A stretch of 64,000 nucleotides of DNA, taken from contig JACPFQ010000001.1 in assembly GCA_016182875.1 (NCBI GenBank), positions 85,680-149,679 of the forward strand, read 5' to 3'. Position 1 is the first letter of the stretch; each line of letters opens with the position of its first letter. The stretch comes from Candidatus Doudnabacteria bacterium. Its GTDB lineage: Bacteria > Patescibacteriota > Doudnabacteria > UBA920 > O2-02-FULL-48-8. The notes below the pieces were generated by a model. It was not told the DNA's origin, did not search any database, and was given only the letters and a program-made list of their open reading frames with translations. This document shows, piece after piece, positions 3,360-61,619 of this stretch. Made by a program: the position numbers and the translations under genes.

Positions 3360-3416
3360 ACCGTGATATGTTAGCATAAAAATAGCTTTCGGGTCAATCT
3401 TGCGAAATATCCGCCT

Positions 3417-3445
3417 AAAAGCCCCGGCACTTACCCGGGGCTTTT
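3417..3445. terminator. Hairpin AAAAGCCCCGG-cacttac-CCGGGGCTTTT in the rplU upstream region; terminator or attenuator-like
   Basis: 9-bp GC stem flanked by A and T runs on both strands. Function unknown. Confidence 0.4.
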
Positions 3446-3665
3446 AGCAAACGTGGTGCTTTTCCATATTGTGTTTTTCCCTCGATTAGGCTAACCGCCT
3501 TATGGCTTTCCACAAATTTTTTTGGAAAAGCATACGTGCGTTACGGCCTGTCGCATCTTTATATCTCTCCTTTCGCCACAATTTTAACGCTTCTGCCGCG
3601 GATTGTAAATAAAAATTCCGTTTTTCTTTGAATTTCAGCAAAATAGGGCCAAATTCAGGTAATAA

Positions 3666-3696
3666 AATGACGACGGGAATGTCGTTGTTTTATTAA
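3666..3696 (+). repeat. Hairpin repeat AAAATGACGAC-N7-TCGTTGTTTT, copy 1
   Basis: Near-identical element at 4957-4988. Stem GACGAC/GTCGTT followed by a T-run. Confidence 0.5.
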
Positions 3697-3794
3697 CGAA
3701 AAGTCGTTGAAAAAGGCGGCTAATTTGAATTTGTCCTCGATTCCAGTTGCTCATTTCAACACAGGTGCTATACAAAAGTCAGAAAGGAGTGGTT

Positions 3795-4004
3795 ATGAGA
3801 GAAATCACTCGAAAACTTAAAAGGATTATCGAGTCGGGAGATGCAAGAATGATTCTATTGGAAGATGACCAAGGTCGCGTTCTATTGGAAATTTCTCCAG
3901 ACCTTAGTTTTCTTAAATCAACGCTAAATCTCGTAAAAGGAATTACGAAAACCGTCAAAAATTGCAAATTGATTGTCACAAAAAAACAATTATTATTCAA
4001 CTAA
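3795..4004 (+). CDS. Hypothetical small protein (70 aa)
   Basis: Good SD AAAGGAGTGGTT-ATG. No recognisable domain. Confidence 0.45.
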   Translation: MREITRKLKRIIESGDARMILLEDDQGRVLLEISPDLSFLKSTLNLVKGITKTVKNCKLIVTKKQLLFN

Positions 4005-12255: not shown

Positions 12256-12289
12256 CACTATGTAGCGTGCCGATTCATCGGCTCAAGCT

Positions 12290-12324
12290 GATAAATCAGC
12301 GCGCTACAATCACAGTGCCCTTGA
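12290..12324. repeat. Palindromic element GCTGATAAATCAGC with conserved flanks (family also at 49504-49540)
   Basis: ATTCATCG..GCTGATAAATCAGC..GCTACA is shared by both loci. Overlaps the 3' end of the UMP kinase coding region. Confidence 0.5.
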
Positions 12325-15511: not shown

Positions 15512-16554
15512 TAATCTTTCTGTAATGCCAGTTTAATTAAAATATCCAAAAGCTGGGGGTAAGAAATACCGGCAGCGGCAGCGGATTTGGGAACCAACGA
15601 GGTCGGAGTAAGCCCGGGGATGGTGTTGATTTCCAGGAAATAAAGTTCGCCTTTTTTGTTCATAATGAAGTCAGACCGTGTAAGACCGCGGCAGCCCATA
15701 GCCAAATGAATCTGCAGGGCCAGGGTTTGGACTTCTCTCCGGGCCTTGTCAGAGATTCTTGCGGGTACAATTTCATCAGTGCCTCCCACTGCGTATTTGG
15801 CTTTGTAATCAAAAAAATTCGAGATAAGAGGAACAATCTCTATGACCGGCAGGGCCTGCGGCCGGGTGTTGCCAAGCACCGGCACAGTCAATTCGGTTCC
15901 TTCAATGAATTTTTCCACCAAAACTTCGCTGTCATGCCTAAAAGCCTTTTTTATAGCTCTATCCACCGCGGCCTTGCCGGAAACGATGAAGGTTCCCAGG
16001 GATGAGCCCATGCGATTGGGCTTGACCACGACCTTGCCGCGAATTTGCTTGAAATAATGTTTCTTTTCGGAAGCATAGTCGTGCTTGTAAACCAAAACCG
16101 CGTGTGCCACCTTGATGCCAAGTCTTGTTACAAAGACTTTCGTCCTGATTTTGTCCATAGCCAGGGCTGAGGCAAGCACGCTGGAACAGGTGTAAGGAAT
16201 TTTTAAAAGCTCAAGCATGCCCTGAATAGTGCCGTCCTCGCCTCCTGGCCCATGCAAAGCTAAAAGAGCCACGTCGGGCTTGCCCCTTTCGTCTTTGCGA
16301 GTGATTAGCGAAGCAATCTCTTTTTGGGATTGCTTCGTCGCTCCGCTCCTCGCAATGACGGAGCGTGAGATCTGCCTAATTGTGCCGGAAGAGGTCAGCC
16401 ATTTGCCCTGCTTCGAAATCTCAATCGGAATCACGTCGTACTTTCTGGGGTCCAGATTCTGGGCCATGGTGGCGCCCGTGCTCAAAGAGACTTCCCGCTC
16501 TTGCGAAGTCCCCCCAAAAATCAGCGCTACTTTCAGTTTCTTTTGTTTAGGCAT
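15511..16554 (-). CDS. ddl: D-alanine--D-alanine ligase
   Basis: ATP-grasp signature 'ALIFGGTSQEREVSLSTG', 'LHGPGGEDGTIQG', and an 'ELYFLEINTIPG'-type segment. Confidence 0.9.
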   Translation of the reverse strand: MPKQKKLKVALIFGGTSQEREVSLSTGATMAQNLDPRKYDVIPIEISKQGKWLTSSGTIRQISRSVIARSGATKQSQKEIASLITRKDERGKPDVALLALHGPGGEDGTIQGMLELLKIPYTCSSVLASALAMDKIRTKVFVTRLGIKVAHAVLVYKHDYASEKKHYFKQIRGKVVVKPNRMGSSLGTFIVSGKAAVDRAIKKAFRHDSEVLVEKFIEGTELTVPVLGNTRPQALPVIEIVPLISNFFDYKAKYAVGGTDEIVPARISDKARREVQTLALQIHLAMGCRGLTRSDFIMNKKGELYFLEINTIPGLTPTSLVPKSAAAAGISYPQLLDILIKLALQKD

Positions 16555-26328: not shown

Positions 26329-26331
26329 GAT

Positions 26332-26403
26332 TTAATTATAGTCTAATCGTTTTAGGTGGTCAATAAACAAAAACCCAACAGCCACCATCAAAAAATCTCT
26401 CAT
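26332..26403 (-). pseudogene. Truncated duplicate of the 5' end of gene 25499-25831 (MRDFLMVAVGFLFIDHLKRLDYN*)
   Basis: ATGAGAGATTTTTTGATG plus a conserved upstream 'TTAATTAAA' are identical to the intact gene start. Confidence 0.5.
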
Positions 26404-26441
26404 AAATTATTTAATTAAATTCCAAGAATTCAGATTTTTAC

Positions 26442-26850
26442 CTACTGAACCATAATAGTATAGTTTAGAGTAATAACACCAGTTTTTAATTTATGAAATA
26501 CAAAAAGATACGCAGGTTTGTTCCGCTGATTTTTCTTAATCTTTAATTTCCTACTAACCTGGTCCAATAACTTTATTGGTAAGATAATAAATTCGTTGAT
26601 TCCCGTTTCACGGGTACGCGCTACTAGCACAGTAAAAACTCTTGACTCAACAAACTGAAAAGTGCCCAGTCTTATTCCAATGCTTTGTCTTGACCTGAAT
26701 AAGATAAGTCCTTGCTTCTTTTATTGCAGCAATATCCACACCATAATCAACCGGCAAAATATTTGCATTAAACCCCCGAAACAAAAGCTCGCTCATAACA
26801 GCAGCTTCTCCGCCTTTACCAGTAAAGATATTGATTGATCTCTTGTCCAT
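26442..26850 (-). other. Two small ORFs (62 and 67 aa); the 67-aa ORF has a PD-(D/E)xK-like signature (VDYGVDIAAIKEARTYLIQVK), possibly nuclease gene remnants
   Basis: ORFs at 26442-26630 and 26647-26850, in a region full of gene fragments. Confidence 0.3.
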
Positions 26851-26906
26851 AGATAAAGTCTACCACAAAAGAAAAAGCGTCTTTAGCCAACGTCAACCTT
26901 TATGAT

Positions 26907-26937
26907 ATTCTCACATTCTCAAGAATATTGGAATGTC
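26907..26937. promoter_or_regulatory. 31-bp repeat copy 3
   Basis: Identical core. Confidence 0.45.
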
Positions 26938-27040
26938 AATTCCGTTTTCGACACATTTGTACCAATATCCGAATTGCACCTGCCCAGCCGTCTGGCGGGG
27001 TAATTAAGCAAATCAAGGTTCGATCATGAAGAGTTCTAAT

Positions 27041-27071
27041 ATTCTCACATTCTCAAGAATGTCGGAATGTC
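27041..27071. promoter_or_regulatory. 31-bp repeat copy 4 (variant ..AAGAATGTCGGAATGTC)
   Basis: Truncates the gene-start fragment at 27045-27107. Confidence 0.45.
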
Positions 27072-27107
27072 TAAGAACCCGACAGCAACCAATAAAAAAT
27101 CTCTCAT
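27045..27107 (-). pseudogene. Second truncated duplicate of the 25499-25831 gene start (MRDFLLVAVGFLDIPTFLRM*)
   Basis: Same ATGAGAGATTTTTT start. The reading frame runs into the 31-bp repeat. Confidence 0.45.
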
Positions 27108-46074: not shown

Positions 46075-47123
46075 TATTTACGTTCTCCGAGCCCTAAATA
46101 TACTATGTTCGCACTTTCAGGGTCAATTGCTATAAGTCTTACCGGCTGCTCGGTCCGCAGCCCCTTGGTTTCCCAGGTCAATCCGCCGTTTAGGCTTTTG
46201 AGCATGGTTGACCCGACGCTGAGCAGTATGTTGTTGGAATTGGACGGGTTGACGGCTAAGGCCGAGACCTTGAGAGCCTTATCCTTGAGCGGCAGGCCTA
46301 GAATATTCCAATTCTGCCCATCGTTGACAGTCCGATACAACCCTTCTTCAGCGGCAAGATAAATCACGCCCGGCAGGCGCGAATCCAGCGAAAAATCATG
46401 GAACACGCTTACGGCCGGCACGGTCGTGTTGTTAAAAACATTGTCCCTGGTTAAAACCTCGCTAATCTTAGTCCAAGTGTGGCCAGAGTCAACGCTTTTA
46501 AATATTCCCGCAGTTCGGGTGAGGACGTAGGCCGTGTTGTTTGAATCAAATCGGATTTTGATTATTCGATCCTGTAAATCCTGGCCTGCCTGCCAGGTGC
46601 TGCCGCCGTCGAACGACCGGATGATTTCTCCCGTCGAAAGCCCCGCAATAACCAGCGACGAGGAAGAGACGGCCATGCTCATGACCGGATTGGATTTGGA
46701 AGGTTCGGTATAAATTTCCGACCAATTATTGCCGTCGTCCAGGCTTTTGATAATCTTGCCGTTATTGCCCGAAACCCCCGCGGCATAAATGGTGCTCGGG
46801 TTGTTCGGGCTAATTGCCAGGTCAGCCACAGCAATCCTGGTAAGGATATAAGTCCAATTTTTTGCGCCATCCTCGGTTTTATAAATGCCCGAACTGCCGG
46901 CTAAATACATGACTTCCGAGTTGCCTGGTTCGAATGCCAAGGCGTTTACCGAAACATTGTTGATATTGCCTTTTCCCAAGCTATTTGCGGAATGAAAGCT
47001 TTCGCCCCCGTCTTCGGATTTAAAAACCCCGCGCGCGCCCGTGGTGATGTTTAACGGGTCGGAAATATTACAGCTTGCAGCCGCAAACACGACCCCCATG
47101 AGCAATATTATAAATTTAGGCAT
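46074..47123 (-). CDS. BNR/Asp-box repeat beta-propeller lipoprotein (Ycf48/sialidase-like fold)
   Basis: Lipobox 'AAASC' and seven S-x-D-G-G-x-T/S-W repeats (e.g. KSEDGGESF, RSFDGGSTW). Confidence 0.6.
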   Translation of the reverse strand: MPKFIILLMGVVFAAASCNISDPLNITTGARGVFKSEDGGESFHSANSLGKGNINNVSVNALAFEPGNSEVMYLAGSSGIYKTEDGAKNWTYILTRIAVADLAISPNNPSTIYAAGVSGNNGKIIKSLDDGNNWSEIYTEPSKSNPVMSMAVSSSSLVIAGLSTGEIIRSFDGGSTWQAGQDLQDRIIKIRFDSNNTAYVLTRTAGIFKSVDSGHTWTKISEVLTRDNVFNNTTVPAVSVFHDFSLDSRLPGVIYLAAEEGLYRTVNDGQNWNILGLPLKDKALKVSALAVNPSNSNNILLSVGSTMLKSLNGGLTWETKGLRTEQPVRLIAIDPESANIVYLGLGERK

Positions 47124-48009
47124 AATCGGCTTGAAGCATTAAATTTACCAGCACCAGTTTGGCGTTCAGGTTTTGCCTGACCAGACTTTGGCTTTCGCCA
47201 AGCAGAGCTATCCGGTCTGCTAGTTTTTTATGCGGGTTCTTTCTAAGCTCCGACTCCAGCCGGTTTTGCCACAGGTCGAGGGTCAATAATAACTCCGCTG
47301 TTTCGCTTTCAGAAAGTTGGTTCACCAAAAGCAGCCTTTTTGACTTGTCTTCGGACAAAAAATCATCAAGCTGTTTTTCTGTGTTGGCAAGCATTGACAA
47401 GAATTCCTCGTCCATGGCTATCTTGAGGGCTAGGCCCGGCTTCTGGGATGCAAAATTTTGGATTAAAGCTTTCTGCGCCGTTGAAAGTTTCAGCGGCAGA
47501 AGGTATTTGTACCCATCATAATCAACCACGCCGAAATTTATTTTTTGGGCGCGGGAGAGGATGGTTTTTTTAAGCCGGTCCGGCGAAGAGGTAATAAGGA
47601 TGACTATCGTATAAGGCTTCGGCTCTTCGATGCTTTTCAGAAGGGCGTTCTGCGCCTCCTCGGTCATATTTTCGGCGGCATCAATCACGGCAACCTTATA
47701 CTGGGCCAAATAAGGCTTCAGCGAGAGCTTGTAAATCAAATCCCTTATCTGCTCAATCTTTATGGCTTCGCTGCCGCCCAGCTCAATGAAGTCGGCGTTA
47801 TTTTTCAAGACAAAGCTTTTGCATTGCTTGCAGGAATTGCAGGCCTGGTTGTTTTCGCAAATCAAAATCTGGGCAAGCTTATGGGCGACCATCCGTTTGC
47901 CAACTCCTTGAGGGCCGGCGAAGACATAAGCATGGGCCAGCCGCCCCCGTTTGATTGTCTGCTCCAAAAACTCCAGCTGTTTTTTGTGTCCCGCAACTTG
48001 CCAATCCAT
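47116..48009 (-). CDS. holB: DNA polymerase III delta-prime subunit
   Basis: Degenerate P-loop 'GPQGVGKRMVA', zinc module 'CNSCKQCKSF', and an AAA+ clamp-loader fold. Confidence 0.8.
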   Translation of the reverse strand: MDWQVAGHKKQLEFLEQTIKRGRLAHAYVFAGPQGVGKRMVAHKLAQILICENNQACNSCKQCKSFVLKNNADFIELGGSEAIKIEQIRDLIYKLSLKPYLAQYKVAVIDAAENMTEEAQNALLKSIEEPKPYTIVILITSSPDRLKKTILSRAQKINFGVVDYDGYKYLLPLKLSTAQKALIQNFASQKPGLALKIAMDEEFLSMLANTEKQLDDFLSEDKSKRLLLVNQLSESETAELLLTLDLWQNRLESELRKNPHKKLADRIALLGESQSLVRQNLNAKLVLVNLMLQADYA

Positions 48010-48634
48010 GGCCTAATTCTAGCATTTTTGCCCTCTAAACAAAAACAGCAACCGTTCTGGCCAATTCTGCACTCTTAGTGCGAAGTTTTGGCCCAAGGCC
48101 GCTGATTTTTGTTTGTTACAAAGCTTTGTTAGGCTTAACCTCAAATATTTTTGCAAAAGCAAAATTTTGAGTCAATGTTGTTATGTGGAAAATCTGTTGA
48201 GATTTTTTGTGTACAAAAAATTCACCGCTAGGGTGAATCTTTTGATTAAAGATCGGTGTGGTACCGGTTCTGTTAACTGAGTCCTTACGAACTTTCGCTA
48301 ACCGGGGAAAAGGTCCAAGAGGTTACCCTTACTTGTTTGACACCGAAGGCATTTCTCCTTCAGCGTACCTTCTCAGAAACCAGTATCTCTTGATCAGTCG
48401 ATCCCGCTTTTCAGCGGAACCTGCTTCGCAAGAGTTGCCCCTTACGAAGACCATGGTATAGCTATTCTAGATTAGGTAAAATTTGAGGTCAAATTATTTT
48501 AAAGCAACAAAAAACAGCCGGTTTTAAAGGCTTTTTTGTGAGGTGTGAATAAATTGTTCTTAAAGAGTGGAAAATCTGTAGAATTGACAAAAATTTACTA
48601 AAAAAGGATAATTAATATATCAATGGATAGGGCC

Positions 48635-48663
48635 TTGACTTTGAGACTAAATAGGCTTATAAT
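48635..48663 (+). promoter_or_regulatory. Consensus sigma70 promoter TTGACT, 17-nt spacer, TATAAT inside the gene desert
   Basis: -35 at 48635-48640, 17-nt spacer, -10 at 48658-48663. Confidence 0.45.
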
Positions 48664-49503
48664 TTAGAGCCAATGAATAAAAACAAGACAAAAGGATATA
48701 ATAGATTTAGATAATCTGATAATATCTTTTTGCCTGTTTTTTTCTTACGATACTTGTAGATTTGTTGCTAAAGCCAGCGGTTGTAAGAGAGTTTAATACT
48801 TAGATAACAGTTGTAGTTTTATAACTGTTTAGAGCTAAAAAGTTCTAGATGTATTACTTACGTCTAGGCTTTTTAGTATGTGGAGGGAACCGGAACCACT
48901 TCCCTTTGGCGATGATTAACCGGCCGTTCCGGTAAACTGCATTGCAGTACCAGAAACCATCATCACCAAGGAAGCACTGTTGGTGAACTGTTGAGGGTTG
49001 TTGTGTCTGTTCTGTCATAAAGGCGGCTTTCCTGTGTTGGCTTGCTCTCTTACAACCACCTACAACCGCTAGTTCTAGAAACAAATTCTTATTTTGAAGG
49101 TACAAATAAAATCGCCTCACGAGCCAGCACTCTGGGGTTTAACTTTCGTTAATCCCCAAGATTTGAGCGCCTGGGGGAATTTGATTTTCCCCAGAGCACT
49201 AGCTCTTAAAGCGATTTTGCCCTAGTGAGTATCGGACTTGCTGGCTTCTCCGGGCGCTCAACTCGGAGAAAGTTGTAGATTTTTAAAGTGCTTATATCTT
49301 AAAGGATTTTATTTAGGCTGTCAAACGCGGCCTTTTCCTATCCTCACTTATTATAGCAATACCGGTTTACAAAGTCCATATTATGTCTTGAGGGGAGAGG
49401 TGTTAACTGTTGAGACTGCATACGCGAAGCATTATTCGCATTCGCGAGCGAGGAGCTGGTGTACTTTGAGGAGAGCGTGGCGATCTACTTTCTAGCCCGT
49501 TAA

Positions 49504-49580
49504 TTCATCGATGCTGATAAATCAGCAGGCTACACTCGGGTTAGATTGCTTCGTCGCTACACTCCTCGCAAATGCGCAGA
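49504..49580. repeat. Two small palindromic repeat elements overlapping the 3' end of mreB-2: GCTGATAAATCAGC (also at 12299) and TTAGATTGCTTCGTCGC..CTCCTCGCAAATGCG (also at 52925-52965)
   Basis: Shared 35-40-nt segments at both loci. Confidence 0.5.
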
Positions 49581-49591
49581 CAGACAGTTTC

Positions 49592-50599
49592 TTACCTTGC
49601 CGCCAGGATGCTGCGCTTATAGCTTTCCAAGTTCTCCAGGGCGACGCCGGTGCCTTGGGCTACGCAAAGAATCGCGTCATCCGCCACATAGGCAGGCACC
49701 CCAGTGGACTGGCCGATTAGCTTGTCCACATTCCTAAGCAGGGCGGTGCCACCGGTCATAATCATGCCCTTGTCTATAATATCGGCTGCCAGCTCCGGCG
49801 GCGTTTCCTGCAATACCGAGCGCACCGCCTTGATTATTTCGCGGAGCTCCTCCTGAATCGCCTCAACTACTTCGTTCGTGGAAATCTGGACTGTTTTGGG
49901 CAGCCCTTGAATCAAATCGCGGCCGCGAATCTCAATCACCCCTTCCTTTTCGACGGGCAAGGCCGAACCGATTTTAATTTTAATTTCTTCCGCGGTGCGG
50001 TCTCCTATGGCCAAACCGTATTTTCGCCGGACGTATTCGGCAATCGCGGCATCCAGCTTATTGCCGGCTACCCGCACCGAAGTCTGGGTCACTATTCCTC
50101 CCAAAGACAGCACAGCCACGTCTGTGGTGCCCCCGCCGATATCAATAATCATATTGCCGGAGGGGTGAGCAATATCAATGCCGGCGCCGATTGCCGCGGC
50201 TACCGTTTCCTTGATGACGTAGGCGGCTTTGGCGCCAGCAGCGGTAGCGGCATCCACGACGGCGCGCCTTTCCGTGGAGGTAATGCCTCCAGGCACCGAA
50301 ATCATGACCTCTGGCCGGAAAAATCGGATATTGCCCGCGGCTTTGTTGATGAAGTACCTAAGCATGGCTTCGGTCACGCGGTAATCGGCAATCACGCCGT
50401 CCTTCATGGGCCGGTGCGCGACAATCGTATCAGGAGTGCGGCCAAGCATCTCCTTGGCTTCCGATCCTACGGCCAAAACCTGGTTGTCGACAATGGAAAT
50501 AGCCACCACAGTCGGTTCATTTATGATAATGCCTTTGTTCGGCACGAAAACCAAAGTGTTGGCTGTGCCCAGGTCTATGCCTATTCTCTTTAAAAACAT
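49592..50599 (-). CDS. MreB/Mbl-family actin homolog (second paralog)
   Basis: '[14 protein letters not shown]', '[18 protein letters not shown]'. Confidence 0.9.
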
Positions 50600-52869: not shown

Positions 52870-52924
52870 CGAACTTACGCATCTGCGAGCGACCGCAGGT
52901 CGCGTGGCAGTCTATTCTTTTGGA

Positions 52925-52965
52925 TTAGATTGCTTCGTCGCCGTTCGGCTCCTCGCAAATGCGAA
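52925..52965. repeat. Repeat TTAGATTGCTTCGTCGC..CTCCTCGCAAATGCG, copy 2
   Basis: Matches 49541-49580. Confidence 0.5.
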
Positions 52966-60391: not shown

Positions 60392-61619
60392 GTGAAATCT
60401 CCAATGCTTTAATCGCAGGCAATTTTTTTCCGGCCAAAAATTCAAGCATGGCCCCGCCGCCGGTGGAAACATGGTCCAAAAATTCCGAAACCTTGGCCTG
60501 ATCCAAAACCTCGACGGTTTCACCGCCGCCGGCAACGCCATAAGCCTTGCCGCGGGCTTGGGAAGCAAAAACATAGGCCAGGCTCCTGCTGCCGAATGAA
60601 AACTTGGGATACTCTATTAAACCCAAAGGCCCGTTCCAAATCAGAGTTTTGGCGGACTTAAGGTATGTTGCGAACTGCCGGATTGTTTCCGGCCCGATAT
60701 CGAGAATCATCTGATTCGACCTGACTTTGGAAACGGGGAGAGCTTCCGCCTGGTCGTTTGGAGATTTCGCGACCACGACATCAACCGGCAGGATGATTTT
60801 TTCCTTGTAATTGCGCTCCAATTCCTTAGCCACCGCGAGGTTGTCAAACTTCGATAAACCAATGTTAAATCCGCGCGCTTTAAGAAAAGAATTGGCCAAT
60901 TCTCCCCCGACCAAAATATAAGAGGCGTGCTGAGCCAGGTTGTGGATCGTTCCGACTTTGTCGGAAATTTTGGCCCCGCCCATCAAAATTACCAGGGGCT
61001 TTTCGGGGTTTCTTAAAACCTTGCTTAAGGAGCTGATTTCTTTGAGGAAGGAAATGCCGGCGTAACTTTTAAGCTTAAGCGCTAGGCCATAGGTTGAAGC
61101 TTCCATTCTGTGACTCATCGAAAACGCTTCGTTTACGAATATCTCGCCGAATGAGGCCAGGGTTTTCACAAACTGCTCGTCATTGTTTTCTTCTCCCGCG
61201 TAGAATCGAATATTTTCCAAAAACAAGATATCACTTGGCTTTATTTTTTTGCTTAAGTCCGAGTAATCTTTTTGCGTGATATCAGTGTCCAAAAAATAAA
61301 TGTGCGGAACATTATAATCCGGAAGTTCGTCAGAAACTTTGACTGTTTTCATGCCCAATAGTTCTCCAAGTTTCTCTGCTGCCGGCCAGAGCGATTTGTC
61401 CATCTGCCAGCCCTCCGGACGATTCAGATGGGAAACAATCACCACTTTTGCGCCCTCTCGAATCAAATGCCTGATCGTCTGTAATGCGTCACGGATTCGT
61501 GCGTCATCAGCCACTTCCAATTTTTCCGTATGGATGTTTTTTTTCAAAGGCACATCAAAACCGACGCGCACAATCACGCGCCGGCCGGAAACTTTTACGC
61601 TTGTTATCGGCTTTATCAT
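60384..61619 (-). CDS. pgk: Phosphoglycerate kinase
   Basis: 'GRRVIVRVGFDVPL', 'VSHLNRPEG', and a C-terminal ATP domain. ATG at 61619 preferred over the TTG at 61640 inside the repeat. Confidence 0.92.
   Translation of the reverse strand: MIKPITSVKVSGRRVIVRVGFDVPLKKNIHTEKLEVADDARIRDALQTIRHLIREGAKVVIVSHLNRPEGWQMDKSLWPAAEKLGELLGMKTVKVSDELPDYNVPHIYFLDTDITQKDYSDLSKKIKPSDILFLENIRFYAGEENNDEQFVKTLASFGEIFVNEAFSMSHRMEASTYGLALKLKSYAGISFLKEISSLSKVLRNPEKPLVILMGGAKISDKVGTIHNLAQHASYILVGGELANSFLKARGFNIGLSKFDNLAVAKELERNYKEKIILPVDVVVAKSPNDQAEALPVSKVRSNQMILDIGPETIRQFATYLKSAKTLIWNGPLGLIEYPKFSFGSRSLAYVFASQARGKAYGVAGGGETVEVLDQAKVSEFLDHVSTGGGAMLEFLAGKKLPAIKALEISHA

What the first reader, a model, noticed from the sequence alone, without database searches (positions are those of the whole stretch)
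48010..49591. 1.6-kb gene desert between holB and mreB-2 with a consensus promoter and extensive stem structure
A noncoding stretch this long is conspicuous in a genome where genes overlap by 4-8 nt. The left half is AT-rich and carries a textbook TTGACT-17-TATAAT promoter (48635-48663). The right half (48860-49500) is GC-richer and dense in nested stems. Only weak ORFs are present, the best being a possible 54-aa protein at 48854-49018 on the minus strand. I could not place conserved RNase P, SRP, tmRNA, rRNA or tRNA motifs. It could be a large structured RNA (for example a GOLLD, ROOL or HEARO-class RNA or something new), a decayed gene, or a remnant of another GC-rich cassette.
Basis: seen in the sequence. 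Interest (0 to 1): 0.55.

Follow-up and report, generated by a model that had tools for sequence, protein, structure and literature searches.

The report
Small-RNA gene cluster plus unconserved insert
The 1.6-kb "gene desert" in this Candidatus Doudnabacteria genome is not one giant RNA: its left third carries two conserved, previously uncatalogued structured small-RNA genes on the minus strand, and the stem-rich right two-thirds is a lineage-specific insert with no detectable relative anywhere.

Summary
48010-49591 is the largest ORF-free gap in the window. The consensus promoter is present, and the stems exceed chance (z about -8).

The organism is a Candidatus Doudnabacteria (CPR), and murA-mreB-[gap]-holB-BNR-frr is syntenic in at least 10 relatives.

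- **RNA1** (about 48457->48213, about 245 nt) has its own promoter and terminator. On 11 sequences, 82 pairs are 95.8% paired and 44 show compensatory changes. Its 5'-terminal octamer stays self-complementary through compensatory variants.
- **RNA2** (about 48141->48037) has an invariant 5' AGGUUAAGCCUA and a covarying 3' hairpin that ends in the terminator.

Neither RNA matches any Rfam 15 family. holB has its own extended -10 and looks leaderless.

The stem-rich right part (about 48585-49591) has no homologue in any relative, phage, plasmid or viral contig. Its six-frame translation finds no protein. Its 54-aa ORF has non-coding codon usage. It sits in a slot that is nearly empty in some relatives and holds unrelated structured inserts or MITE-like elements in others.

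GOLLD, ROOL, HEARO, RNase P, tmRNA, SRP, pseudogene and oriC readings are rejected. The functions of RNA1 and RNA2 are unknown.

The parts
48213..48457 (-). RNA1: a conserved, independently transcribed structured ncRNA of about 245 nt. Its elements are a 5'-terminal palindrome ACCAUGGU, the P1 hairpin (GNRA loop), the P2 hairpin, and a long-range P3/P4 domain enclosing P5-P8. P7 is CAAGUAAGGGUAACCUCUUG in the window; its loop N position is U here, C in most relatives and A in L107 and L118. The RNA ends in an intrinsic terminator (hairpin 48220-48238 plus U-run).
   Evidence: The minus strand folds at -81.4 kcal/mol (z -3.9), against z +0.8 for the plus strand. In the 11-sequence alignment A5, 82 pairs are 95.8% paired, 44 pairs show compensatory change, and 0 of 500 shuffles reach this; slid controls give <=51.5% paired and <=17 pairs. 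Model R1 scores 234.8 bits here and finds a single copy in the window. There is no Rfam hit.
48464..48492 (-). RNA1 promoter, TTGACC-17-TAGAAT. The -35 TTGAC and the -10 TA..AT are invariant in 11 relatives.
   Evidence: Promoter scan and alignment A7.
48475..48579 (-). Block upstream of RNA1 that is conserved in all relatives. It holds DnaA-box-like / CACAG-N7-CACAG motifs (for example TTATTCACA at 48544-48552) and a small hairpin plus U-run (48510-48537).
   Evidence: Alignment A7, BLAST between spacers, and 4-fold motif enrichment.
48037..48141 (-). RNA2: a conserved sRNA of about 105 nt. It has an invariant 5' AGGUUAAGCCUA, a small variable palindromic hairpin, and a structured 3' hairpin that ends as an intrinsic terminator (stem 48046-48104, U-run 48037-48045).
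   Evidence: nhmmer hits lie downstream of RNA1 in the relatives. In alignment A6, 30 pairs are 87% paired with 14 compensatory; slid controls give <=46% and <=5. The minus strand folds at -41.9 (z -5.9), against -36.9 for the plus strand.
48147..48175 (-). RNA2 promoter, TTGACT-17-AAAAAT with an upstream TG. A DnaA-box-like TTTTCCACA lies just upstream at 48184-48192.
48016..48024 (-). holB's own extended -10 (TGCTAGAAT), 6 nt before the ATG at 48009. The holB mRNA is therefore probably leaderless, and RNA2 is not a holB leader.
   Evidence: Read directly from the sequence. The same TGnTAnAAT-then-ATG arrangement occurs in L104, L107, L115 and L103.
48585..49591 (.). Lineage-specific insert of about 1 kb between the mreB stop codon and the conserved block upstream of RNA1. 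No homologue was found anywhere.
   Evidence: No similarity in any syntenic relative, in phages or plasmids, or in viral contigs. The six-frame translation has no protein homologue. In L118, L107, L108 and L095 this slot is only 126-176 nt long.
49095..49289 (-). Candidate lineage-specific sRNA ('RNA-X'): a hairpin at 49245-49270, then a long near-perfect hairpin at 49108-49218 followed by UUUUAUUUGU. Two promoter-like sites lie upstream, TGGACT-17-TATAAT (49378->49350) and TTGACA-17-TAAGAT (49324->49296).
   Evidence: For the long hairpin, the minus strand gives -59.6 (z -8.3) and the plus strand -46.0 (z -5.2). Three G-U pairs on the minus strand are A-C mismatches on the plus strand. There is no comparative support.
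48854..49018 (-). 54-aa ORF, with an AGGAAAG sequence 9 nt upstream. It is not supported as a gene.
   Evidence: No homologue among 5.8 billion proteins. It is not called as a gene on any contig. There is no Pfam hit. Its codon score is -0.17, against +0.27 +/- 0.12 for real genes, and no real-gene window scores as low.
48760..49086 (.). Unit bounded by imperfect inverted repeats. The arms are 48760-48796 and 49050-49086 (37 nt, 76% complementary; core GGTTGTAAGAGAG / CTCTCTTACAACC is a perfect 13 nt). The unit encloses the 54-aa ORF and a hairpin at 48844-48868.
48690..48744 (.). AT-rich hairpin with a T-run on both strands. It looks like a bidirectional terminator and separates the insert from the RNA1 control region.
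   Evidence: Sequence and folds.
48584..48663 (+). They point into the insert and are unconserved.
49503..49576 (.). Two short dispersed REP-like repeats directly after mreB. Other copies lie at gene ends at 12273-12311, 16328-16355 and 52922-52963.

Best explanation
The desert is a composite intergenic region, not a single element.

**Shown: two conserved sRNA genes.** The holB-proximal 470 nt carries two tandem sRNA genes on the minus strand, co-directional with mreB and holB. Each has its own sigma-70-type promoter and intrinsic terminator.
- RNA1 (about 245 nt) folds into a multi-helix body that is strongly supported by covariation. It has three GNRA tetraloops.
- RNA2 (about 105 nt) has an invariant 12-nt 5' motif and a covarying 3' hairpin that ends in the terminator.
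- Both sit in the same syntenic position (mreB - RNA1 - RNA2 - holB) in a clade of Candidatus Doudnabacteria. They are absent from the mreB neighbourhoods of other CPR lineages and match no Rfam 15 family.

**Shown: an unconserved insert.** The mreB-proximal ~1 kb is an insertion peculiar to this lineage. It lies in a variable slot between the mreB terminator and the RNA1 control region.

**Inferred: how the RNAs act.**
- RNA1 most likely acts as a folded particle, either a protein-binding scaffold or an RNA-only dimer. The reason is that its 5'-terminal octamer ACCAUGGU stays self-complementary through compensatory variants (ACGAUCGU, ACUAUAGU).
- RNA2 looks like a classical trans-acting base-pairing sRNA whose invariant 5' motif is the seed.
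- The conserved DnaA-box-like / direct-repeat motif upstream of RNA1 probably puts RNA1 under a DNA-binding regulator.

**Inferred: what the insert is.** It is most likely neutral or selfish hairpin-rich DNA (REP-like units, a unit bounded by inverted repeats, a long hairpin). It possibly includes one orphan minus-strand sRNA. It is not a conserved large RNA.
For: **Synteny and gap sizes.**
- MreB is 89% identical to that of Ca. Doudnabacteria MFEY01000007.1.
- murA-mreB-gap-holB-BNR-frr is conserved.
- Gap lengths range from 277 to 2915 nt, against 1582 nt in the window.

**RNA1.**
- It aligns over its full length with L011 (63% identity over 257 nt, E 1e-17).
- A motif search found it in 14 metagenome loci, 9 of them distinct sequences.
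- L118 and L125 were reached independently through HolB homologues and also carry it.
- Covariation: 82 pairs are 95.8% paired, 44 show changes on both sides, and 0 of 500 shuffles reach this. Slid controls give <=51.5% paired and <=17 pairs.
- Strand asymmetry: z -3.9 on the minus strand against +0.8 on the plus strand.
- Model R1 finds it only in loci whose MreB is about 85% or more identical, and not in about 30 other CPR mreB loci.
- In the palindrome helix, 4 of 4 pairs are 100% kept, with a CG->GC and a CG->UA change at the third pair.

**RNA2.**

**Promoters and terminators.**

**No known family.**

**The insert is unique.**

**The slot is variable.**
- It is 126-176 nt long in L107, L108, L095 and L118.
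- It is 600-900 nt long, holding other structured units with their own promoter and terminator, in L104, L115, L094, L102, L093 and L125.
- A MITE-like element with terminal inverted repeats CAGTAWTACAACTTCGAT occurs in this intergenic region in relatives.
Against: - There are no expression data, so transcription start sites, 3' ends and even transcription itself are inferred from sequence.
- Most RNA1 homologues were recruited with an exact 19-nt pattern from helix P7. The invariance of P7 is therefore partly circular, and the family may be wider or narrower than seen.
- The 11 sequences are related, so shuffle-based covariation statistics overstate significance. The slid-partner control is the fairer one, and the structure passes it.
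- The dimerisation idea rests on only two compensatory variants (ACGAUCGU, ACUAUAGU) plus one G-U wobble variant (AUCAUGGU), and on one variable pair. A palindromic protein operator at the transcription start is not excluded.
- L124 has RNA2 but no RNA1, so RNA1 is dispensable in at least one lineage.
- The insert is identical in all available contigs of this population. It contains a hairpin with clear minus-strand preference and promoter-like sites, so part of it may be functional despite the lack of conservation.
Confidence: 0.75

Rival explanations
1. The right half (about 48700-49500) is one large structured ncRNA, either a GOLLD, ROOL or HEARO-class RNA or a new large RNA.
For: The folding z-scores are very low, -7.5 and -8.3. 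There are nested long-range inverted repeats. Promoter-like and terminator-like sites lie at both ends.
Against: - There is no Rfam hit, even at E<=10.
- No homologue exists in any of more than 10 syntenic relatives or in other collections.
- The two strands fold equally well overall (-154.7 against -154.8). Every conserved RNA in this locus, by contrast, shows strong sense-strand preference.
- The structure breaks into separate local hairpins with terminator-like U-runs inside it. The central 48840-49095 segment is barely structured (z -1.6 and -2.3).
Confidence: 0.06
2. The insert is a small mobile or selfish DNA composite: REP-like units, a MITE-like unit bounded by inverted repeats, and a long palindromic hairpin. 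It landed in a permissive intergenic slot and has no cellular function.
For: - It is present only in this lineage.
- REP-like repeats with other copies in the window lie at its mreB end.
- It contains a 327-bp unit with 37-nt imperfect terminal inverted repeats.
- A real MITE-like family inserts in the same intergenic region in relatives, even inside RNA2.
- Both strands fold equally well, as expected for DNA palindromes.
- De Bruijn contigs from several samples break inside it at 49133 and 49201-49230.
Against: - No second copy of any part of 48585-49500 exists in the 64-kb window.
- No target-site duplication was seen at the junctions.
- The relatives' MITE family is absent from the window.
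- The long hairpin prefers the minus strand as RNA.
Confidence: 0.35
3. The insert is a functional lineage-specific module. It would consist of an orphan minus-strand sRNA (49289->49095), a small protein gene (the 54-aa ORF) and antisense + strand promoters. One possibility is a type I toxin-antitoxin-like or defence cassette.
For: - Minus-strand promoter-like sites are followed by a hairpin with strong minus-strand preference and a U-run.
- The ORF has a plausible Shine-Dalgarno sequence and ends in a hairpin terminator.
- A consensus + strand promoter faces the ORF.
- The 5' and 3' flanks of the ORF can pair over a long range, as in hok-type mRNAs.
Against: - The ORF's codon usage is like off-frame sequence (-0.17; no real-gene window scores as low).
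- There is no homologue and no gene call.
- The peptide is not hydrophobic, unlike type I toxins.
- Nothing is conserved.
Confidence: 0.12
4. The desert is a decayed protein-coding gene (a pseudogene).
For: Relatives sometimes carry real ORFs elsewhere in this gap. In L011 and L095 a 154-aa and a 127-aa ORF lie between RNA1 and RNA2. In L118 a 121-aa gene lies before holB.
Against: The six-frame translation of 48580-49595 found nothing at E<=0.01 among 5.8 billion proteins. No relative has an intact gene at the homologous position between mreB and RNA1. The left part is fully accounted for by the two RNAs.
Confidence: 0.03
5. The region is the chromosomal replication origin or another DnaA-box cluster with an AT-rich unwinding element.
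For: DnaA-box-like TTATTCACA and TTTTCCACA flank RNA1, are conserved in position in relatives, and are 4-fold enriched. A 29%-GC stretch lies at 48500-48800. A replication gene, holB, is adjacent.
Against: - Only 2 strict boxes are present; the window total of 7 is about what chance gives (6.1).
- GC skew is monotonically negative across the whole window, with no inflection.
- Genes on both sides are on the same strand.
- The AT-rich stretch belongs to the unconserved insert.
Confidence: 0.03

Closest known systems
Orphan structured bacterial ncRNAs found by comparative genomics (raiA motif RNA, OLE RNA and similar Breaker-lab classes)
   Same: RNA1 is an independently transcribed, covariation-supported multi-helix RNA of a few hundred nucleotides. 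It has GNRA tetraloops, is restricted to one bacterial lineage, sits in a conserved genomic neighbourhood, and has no known function.
   Different: It has no sequence or structure match to any of these classes in Rfam 15. It is smaller than OLE, GOLLD or ROOL. It is found in CPR bacteria, whereas (from my own knowledge) those classes are mostly in Bacillota and Actinomycetota.
GOLLD, ROOL and HEARO large RNAs
   Same: They share only the general idea of a long non-coding stretch with many stems.
   Different: The covariance models do not match. The stem-rich 1 kb is unconserved. The conserved RNAs are about 245 and about 105 nt, not 400-800 nt. No IscB, HNH or phage context is present.
RNA homodimers formed through a palindromic sequence (the HIV-1 dimerisation initiation site; OLE RNA dimers seen by cryo-EM, bioRxiv 10.1101/2024.12.08.627333, abstract only as listed; the OLE dimer detail is from my own knowledge)
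   Same: RNA1 carries an exposed self-complementary octamer. Its symmetry is kept by compensatory double substitutions.
   Different: In RNA1 the palindrome is at the extreme 5' end rather than in a hairpin loop. Dimerisation is purely inferred. A DNA operator reading is not excluded.
Classical trans-acting base-pairing sRNAs with a 5' seed and a Rho-independent terminator
   Same: RNA2 has its own promoter, an invariant 5' 12-mer, a variable middle and a terminator hairpin. This is the usual seed-plus-terminator layout.
   Different: No target was identified; the complement of the seed is not enriched in the window. The 3' hairpin is unusually elaborate and itself conserved. Whether Doudnabacteria have an RNA chaperone was not examined.
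REP and MITE elements in intergenic hot spots
   Same: The insert begins with dispersed REP-like repeats and contains units bounded by inverted repeats. Relatives carry a real MITE-like family in the same intergenic region.
   Different: No second copy of the main body of the insert was found. No target-site duplication was found either.

Membership tests
GOLLD / ROOL / HEARO (Rfam RF01998, RF03087, RF02033) | Match to the family covariance model at or near the gathering score | tested here: not met
   There was no hit at gathering threshold over the whole window. None of these families appeared even at E<=10 on 47900-49700.
GOLLD / ROOL / HEARO | Conserved large (>400 nt) structure with covariation among homologues | tested here: not met
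   No homologue of 48585-49591 exists in relatives or other collections.
RNase P RNA / tmRNA / SRP RNA / 6S RNA | Match to the Rfam models, or ARAGORN detection for tmRNA | tested here: not met
   on the window. on relatives that carry RNA1, RNA2 and RNA0.
RNase P RNA / tmRNA / SRP RNA / 6S RNA | Universal presence, as expected of an essential housekeeping RNA | tested here: not met
   RNA1 is absent from L124 and from the mreB loci of other CPR lineages. This covers only these loci, not whole genomes.
Conserved structured ncRNA gene (generic criteria, applied to RNA1) | Homologues in several genomes with compensatory base changes that support one fold | tested here: met
   With 11 sequences, 95.8% of cells are paired and 44 of 82 pairs are compensatory. 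Slid controls give <=51.5% paired and <=17 pairs.
Conserved structured ncRNA gene (generic criteria, applied to RNA1) | Own promoter and terminator; evidence of transcription | tested here: inconclusive
   The promoter (-35 and -10 invariant in 11 sequences) and the covarying terminator hairpin are present. Transcription itself cannot be tested with these tools.
Cis-regulatory leader or riboswitch of holB (applied to RNA2) | Fixed position directly upstream of the regulated ORF on the same transcript | tested here: not met
   holB has its own extended -10, 6 nt before the ATG. In L011/L095, L118 and L116 other genes or about 0.9 kb lie between RNA2 and holB.
Type I toxin-antitoxin (applied to the 54-aa ORF plus antisense promoter) | Small hydrophobic, membrane-active peptide | tested here: not met
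   The peptide MTEQTQQPSTVHQQCFLGDDGFWYCNAVYRNGRLIIAKGKWFRFPPHTKKPRRK is polar and basic and has no hydrophobic stretch. Its codon usage is non-coding-like.
Pseudogene | Residual protein similarity in some frame, or an intact orthologue at the same position in relatives | tested here: not met
   The six-frame query found nothing at E<=0.01. No conserved ORF lies in the relatives' mreB-RNA1 spacers.
oriC | Cluster of DnaA boxes, GC-skew inflection and a switch in gene orientation | tested here: not met
   There are 2 strict boxes, a monotonic skew, and genes on the same strand on both flanks.
MITE / REP (applied to the insert) | Multiple dispersed copies, terminal inverted repeats and a target-site duplication | tested here: inconclusive
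   The REP-like end units have 3 other copies in the window. The main body has inverted repeats but no second copy in 64 kb and no target-site duplication. The whole genome was not available.

The most novel reading that the evidence does not exclude
RNA1 is a new class of compact structured RNA confined to Candidatus Doudnabacteria. In this reading it works as a homodimer through its 5'-terminal palindrome and three GNRA tetraloops. It would act together with the neighbouring RNA2, whose invariant seed AGGUU..GCCU is complementary to the invariant P7 loop and 3' strand of RNA1. A DnaA-like or response-regulator-like protein bound at the conserved upstream repeat would control it. The locus would then be a lineage-specific RNA-based regulatory or scaffold module in an ultra-small episymbiotic bacterium. 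Separately, relatives hold a third fast-evolving structured RNA ('RNA0') in the same locus.
Probability: 0.2. Interest if true: 0.65.

Novelty: new member of a known kind. Interest (0 to 1): 0.45.

Why it matters
CPR/Patescibacteria genomes are tiny and tightly packed, so 0.5-3 kb of conserved non-coding DNA at a fixed locus is unusual. My two literature searches on this topic found no description of these RNAs.

RNA1 is a clean candidate for structural and functional work. It is strongly supported by covariation, is of cryo-EM or SHAPE-friendly size, and may self-dimerise. RNA2 is a candidate seed-type regulator in a phylum where RNA-based regulation has not been explored here.

The case is also a useful caution. 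The most eye-catching part of a gene desert, with dense stems and a textbook promoter, was the unconserved part. The real RNA genes were in the unremarkable flank.

Tried and rejected
**Searches that found nothing.**
- Rfam 15 on the window, at gathering threshold and in two E-value runs, and on 9 plus 2 relatives' loci: nothing.
- ARAGORN on the window and on 10 relatives: nothing.
- HolB back-translated patterns in GTDB genomes: no relative found. MreB worked instead.
- The 54-aa ORF: no homologue, not on record as a gene, no viral relative, and a non-coding codon score.
- Six-frame pseudo-protein of the insert: no hit.
- blastn of the insert against phages and plasmids: no match.
- The RNA1 motif in viral contigs: none.

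**Ideas tested and dropped.**
- Is the insert a diverged copy of the relatives' 'RNA0'? Pairwise nhmmer found nothing. A covariance model of the conserved RNA0 3' domain (L104, L125, L094) found nothing in the window, even with filters off; the best score was 10.5 bits, on a terminator-like hairpin.
- Does the relatives' MITE (terminal inverted repeats CAGTAWTACAACTTCGAT) explain the insert? It is absent from the window.
- oriC: rejected on skew, gene orientation and box count.
- RNA2 as a holB leader: rejected, because holB has its own promoter and synteny is interrupted.
- RNA2 seed targets in the window: only the gene itself.
- RNA2-RNA1 pairing: 5+4 bp of complementarity between invariant segments, but no compensatory support. 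The variable loop base of RNA1 (C, U or A) faces an invariant G, and the G/A variation in RNA2 faces an invariant C.
- Reading RNA1's 41-codon ORF (AUG inside the palindrome, UAA inside P7) as a peptide: rejected, because the AUG is lost in L095 and L115 while the palindrome is kept.
- The 11 other metagenome loci that matched the 19-nt pattern match only the 18-24 nt of the pattern and are not RNA1.
Full report
**1. The observation**

holB (47116-48009, minus; DNA_pol3_delta2, 1.7e-48) and mreB (49592-50599, minus; MreB_Mbl, 3.7e-136) flank 1582 nt without a credible ORF. A simple long-ORF map shows this is by far the largest gap in the 64-kb window. The next largest are 775 and 764 nt.

The TTGACT-17-TATAAT site is at 48635-48663 on the + strand. 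It is one of 8 promoter-like sites in the gap, against 2.5 +/- 1.5 in shuffles.

The right part is strongly structured. For 48665-49345 the z-score is -7.5 on the + strand and -8.3 on the - strand.

No known RNA was found. Rfam 15 gave nothing at gathering score in the whole window and only noise in E-value mode. There is no tRNA or tmRNA.

**2. Whose genome, and what is conserved**

Ten Logan contigs that encode the identical MreB or HolB are 100% identical across the region. They give no comparative signal, but they show the sequence is stable in the population.

MreB is 89% identical to that of Candidatus Doudnabacteria bacterium RIFCSPHIGHO2_12_FULL_48_16 (L011). The window's own HolB is annotated in NCBI as Candidatus Doudnabacteria. 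The gene order murA-mreB-[gap]-holB-BNR-frr is kept in L011/L095, L094, L104, L107, L108, L115, L103, L118, L124 and L125.

The length of the mreB-holB gap varies widely:

| Locus | Gap (nt) |
|---|---|
| L124 | 277 |
| L107 | 740 |
| L104 | 1211 |
| L115 | 1335 |
| L125 | 1379 |
| L118 | 1481 |
| window | 1582 |
| L011 | 2451 |
| L094 | 2915 |

Aligning the window's gap with L011 shows only two conserved blocks. The first is window 48471->48216 (63% identity over 257 nt, E 1e-17). The second is 48168->48110. Nothing to the right of about 48580 matches.

**3. RNA1**

*Fold and flanking signals.* The minus strand of 48230-48480 folds at -81.4 kcal/mol (z -3.9). The plus strand gives z +0.8. That asymmetry is the signature of G-U-containing RNA helices. 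The block is preceded by TTGACC-17-TAGAAT (48492->48464). It ends in a hairpin at 48238-48220 followed by a U-run.

*Homologues.* A scan of JGI metagenomes with the most conserved 19-mer gave 25 loci. Fourteen of them (9 distinct sequences) carry a full-length homologue. L118 and L125 were reached independently through HolB homologues and also have it. L118 has a variant of the 19-mer.

*Covariation.* On the 11-sequence alignment A5 the consensus fold has 82 pairs in 11 helices.
- 95.8% of cells are paired.
- 44 pairs show changes on both sides.
- 0 of 500 shuffles reach any of the five measures.
- Sliding the 3' partners by 1-3 columns drops pairing to 35-52% and the number of compensatory pairs to 7-17.

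*Architecture.*
- a 5' tail;
- P1, an 11-bp hairpin with a GNRA loop, 10 of 11 pairs covarying;
- P2, a hairpin;
- the long-range helices P3 and P4, which enclose P5, P6 and P7 (CAAGUAAGGGCAACCUCUUG, GNRA loop), and P8 (GUAA loop);
- the conserved 3' segment CACACCGGUCU;
- the terminator.

*Distribution.* Covariance model R1 scores the window copy at 234.8 bits. It finds one copy in the window and copies only in the Doudnabacteria-like loci. It finds none in about 30 mreB loci of other CPR lineages. Rfam finds nothing in the relatives either.

*The 5' palindrome.* The first 8 nt after the predicted start, ACCAUGGU, are self-complementary. The variants are ACGAUCGU (L095), ACUAUAGU (L115) and AUCAUGGU (L104), and all keep the symmetry. 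A hairpin cannot form from 8 contiguous nucleotides. I therefore read this as an intermolecular (dimerisation) contact. A palindromic DNA operator at the start site remains possible.

*The apparent ORF.* The 41-codon ORF that starts in this palindrome is not conserved. The AUG is lost in L095 and L115.

**4. RNA2**

Downstream of RNA1, a second promoter (TTGACT-17-AAAAAT with TG, 48175->48147) precedes an invariant AGGUUAAGCCUA. After that come a short palindromic hairpin whose sequence varies but whose symmetry is kept (ACAAAGCUUUGU in the window, CUAAACGUUUAG in relatives), an A-rich linker, and an elaborate hairpin that ends in a U-run.

On 7 sequences, 30 pairs are 87% paired and 14 are compensatory. 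Slid controls give <=46% paired and <=5 pairs.

RNA2 follows RNA1 in nearly all relatives. It can, however, be separated from RNA1 by about 1 kb carrying ORFs (L011). It can also occur without RNA1 (L124). The two are therefore independent genes.

RNA2 is not a holB leader. holB has its own extended -10 (TGCTAGAAT, 48024->48016) 6 nt before the ATG, and the same holds in relatives. In L011, L118 and L116 other sequences or genes lie between RNA2 and holB.

**5. The control region**

About 105 nt upstream of the RNA1 promoter is conserved in all relatives. It reads TCACA..TTATCCAAA..CACAG-N7-CACAG, followed by a small hairpin. These are DnaA-box-like motifs. They occur in fixed position and orientation and are 4-fold enriched around RNA1.

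This is not oriC. Only two strict boxes are present, the GC skew is monotonic across the window, and both flanks are on the same strand.

**6. The right ~1 kb (48585-49591)**

*No relative of any kind.*
- It has no counterpart in any relative.
- It has no match in phages or plasmids. Viral contigs were searched only with the 54-aa ORF, and no relative was found.
- Its six-frame translation finds no protein.

*The 54-aa ORF.*
- It has no homologue.
- It is not called as a gene on any contig.
- Its codon score is -0.17, below every 54-codon window of real genes (+0.27 +/- 0.12), and similar to off-frame sequence.

*Folding, block by block.*
- The long hairpin at 49100-49225 prefers the minus strand (-59.6, z -8.3, against -46.0, z -5.2).
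- The ORF segment at 48840-49095 is barely structured.
- The remaining blocks (49380-49591, 48750-49095, 48665-48760, 48480-48665) show either a plus-strand preference in free energy or no clear preference.

*Contents of the insert, from the mreB end.*
- REP-like repeats that are shared with three other gene ends in the window.
- Two minus-strand promoter-like sites.
- The long hairpin with its U-run.
- A 327-bp unit bounded by inverted repeats around the ORF.
- An AT-rich bidirectional terminator-like hairpin.
- The two + strand promoter-like sites.

*What relatives have in the same slot.* In L107, L108, L095 and L118 the slot is only 126-176 nt. In L104, L115, L094, L102, L093 and L125 it holds 330-600 nt of strongly structured RNA-like sequence that prefers the sense strand. 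Each of these has its own TTGACA-17-TAnnnT promoter, which overlaps the mreB terminator, and its own terminator. I call these units RNA0.
- Three of them (L104, L125, L094) share a conserved 3' domain.
- That domain is absent from the window, even with filters off.

A MITE-like element also occurs in this intergenic region in relatives, including inside RNA2. Its terminal inverted repeats are CAGTAWTACAACTTCGAT, and CCTA is duplicated at the insertion site. It is absent from the window.

The slot is therefore a permissive, fast-turnover site.

**7. Mechanism**

*Shown.* There are two conserved, structured RNA genes with their own promoters and terminators. They are minus-strand, restricted to one clade, and uncatalogued. 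There is also an unconserved insert.

*Inferred.*
- RNA1 acts as a folded particle and probably as a homodimer.
- RNA2 acts through its invariant 5' motif as a base-pairing seed.
- A DNA-binding regulator controls RNA1 through the upstream repeat.
- The insert is mostly neutral or selfish hairpin DNA, with at most one orphan sRNA.

An RNA2-RNA1 interaction is possible, since AGGUU/AACCU and GCCU/GGGC are complementary. It has no covariation support.

**8. Novelty and score**

No Rfam 15 family and no paper I could find describes these RNAs. New lineage-specific structured sRNAs are a known kind of discovery, and the function here is unknown, so interest is moderate.

Noticed in passing
window 49503-49576; also 12273-12311, 16328-16355, 52922-52963: Short dispersed REP-like repeats sit at the 3' ends of genes (core GATTGCTTCGTCGC..CTCCTCGCAAATG, plus a second unit GCTGATAAATCAGC). 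In frame they translate to the 'CEE.SDEAI / RRSNL' strings that, as I recall, are typical of spurious ORFs in CPR genomes.
   Followed up: partly
L107:1086-1240, L115 and L102 (inside RNA2); L102:2212-2229; L104:5878-5895: A MITE-like palindromic element of about 190 bp sits inside the RNA2 gene, immediately after its invariant 5' motif, in three relatives. Its terminal inverted repeats are CAGTAWTACAACTTCGAT, and CCTA is duplicated at the insertion site. It also occurs elsewhere in these genomes. It is absent from the window.
   Followed up: partly
L104:9340-9740, L125:2800-3277, L094:4638-5110 (minus): There is a third RNA family ('RNA0') of 330-600 nt between mreB and RNA1 in some relatives. 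Its promoter overlaps the mreB terminator hairpin. It folds much better on the sense strand, has a conserved 3' domain (model R2, 114-132 bits) and has no Rfam match. The inserts at the same place in L102, L115 and L093 are not detectably related.
   Followed up: partly
window 48540-48579 and 48184-48192; alignment A7: A conserved TCACA..TTATCCAAA..CACAG-N7-CACAG block lies about 80-110 nt upstream of RNA1 in all relatives. It is DnaA-box-like and also resembles a reversed Pho box. A further TTTTCCACA lies between RNA1 and RNA2. This is probably a regulator binding site.
   Followed up: partly
window 48007-48024: holB appears to be leaderless. An extended -10, TGCTAGAAT, ends 6 nt before the ATG, and the same layout is seen in four relatives.
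   Followed up: partly
L124:3724-4000: One relative has a mreB-holB gap of only 277 nt. It contains RNA2 but no RNA1, so RNA1 is dispensable or was lost in that lineage.
   Followed up: yes
L011:7590-8400: A GC-rich segment of about 0.8 kb, with minus-strand ORFs (125 aa and others), is inserted between RNA2 and holB in the reference Doudnabacteria genome. L116, L117, L118 and L121 carry other unrelated minus-strand genes at that spot. This is a second variable slot.
   Followed up: no
window 48330-48359 (ends of L003, L009, L010): Logan de Bruijn contigs from three samples break inside RNA1. L010 ends in the invariant core, at the edge of P7 (48335). L003 and L009 meet just 5' of P7, over J6/7 and the 3' strand of P6 (48330-48359). 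This fits k-mers shared with co-occurring Doudnabacteria species, since L118-L120 come from the same samples. Further breaks at 49133 and 49201-49230, in the long hairpin, are unexplained.
   Followed up: partly
window 26329-27103, 60575-61338, 3378-3972: These are other unusually long ORF-free gaps (775, 764 and 595 nt) in the same window. The whole-window Rfam scan found nothing in them, and they were not examined further.
   Followed up: no
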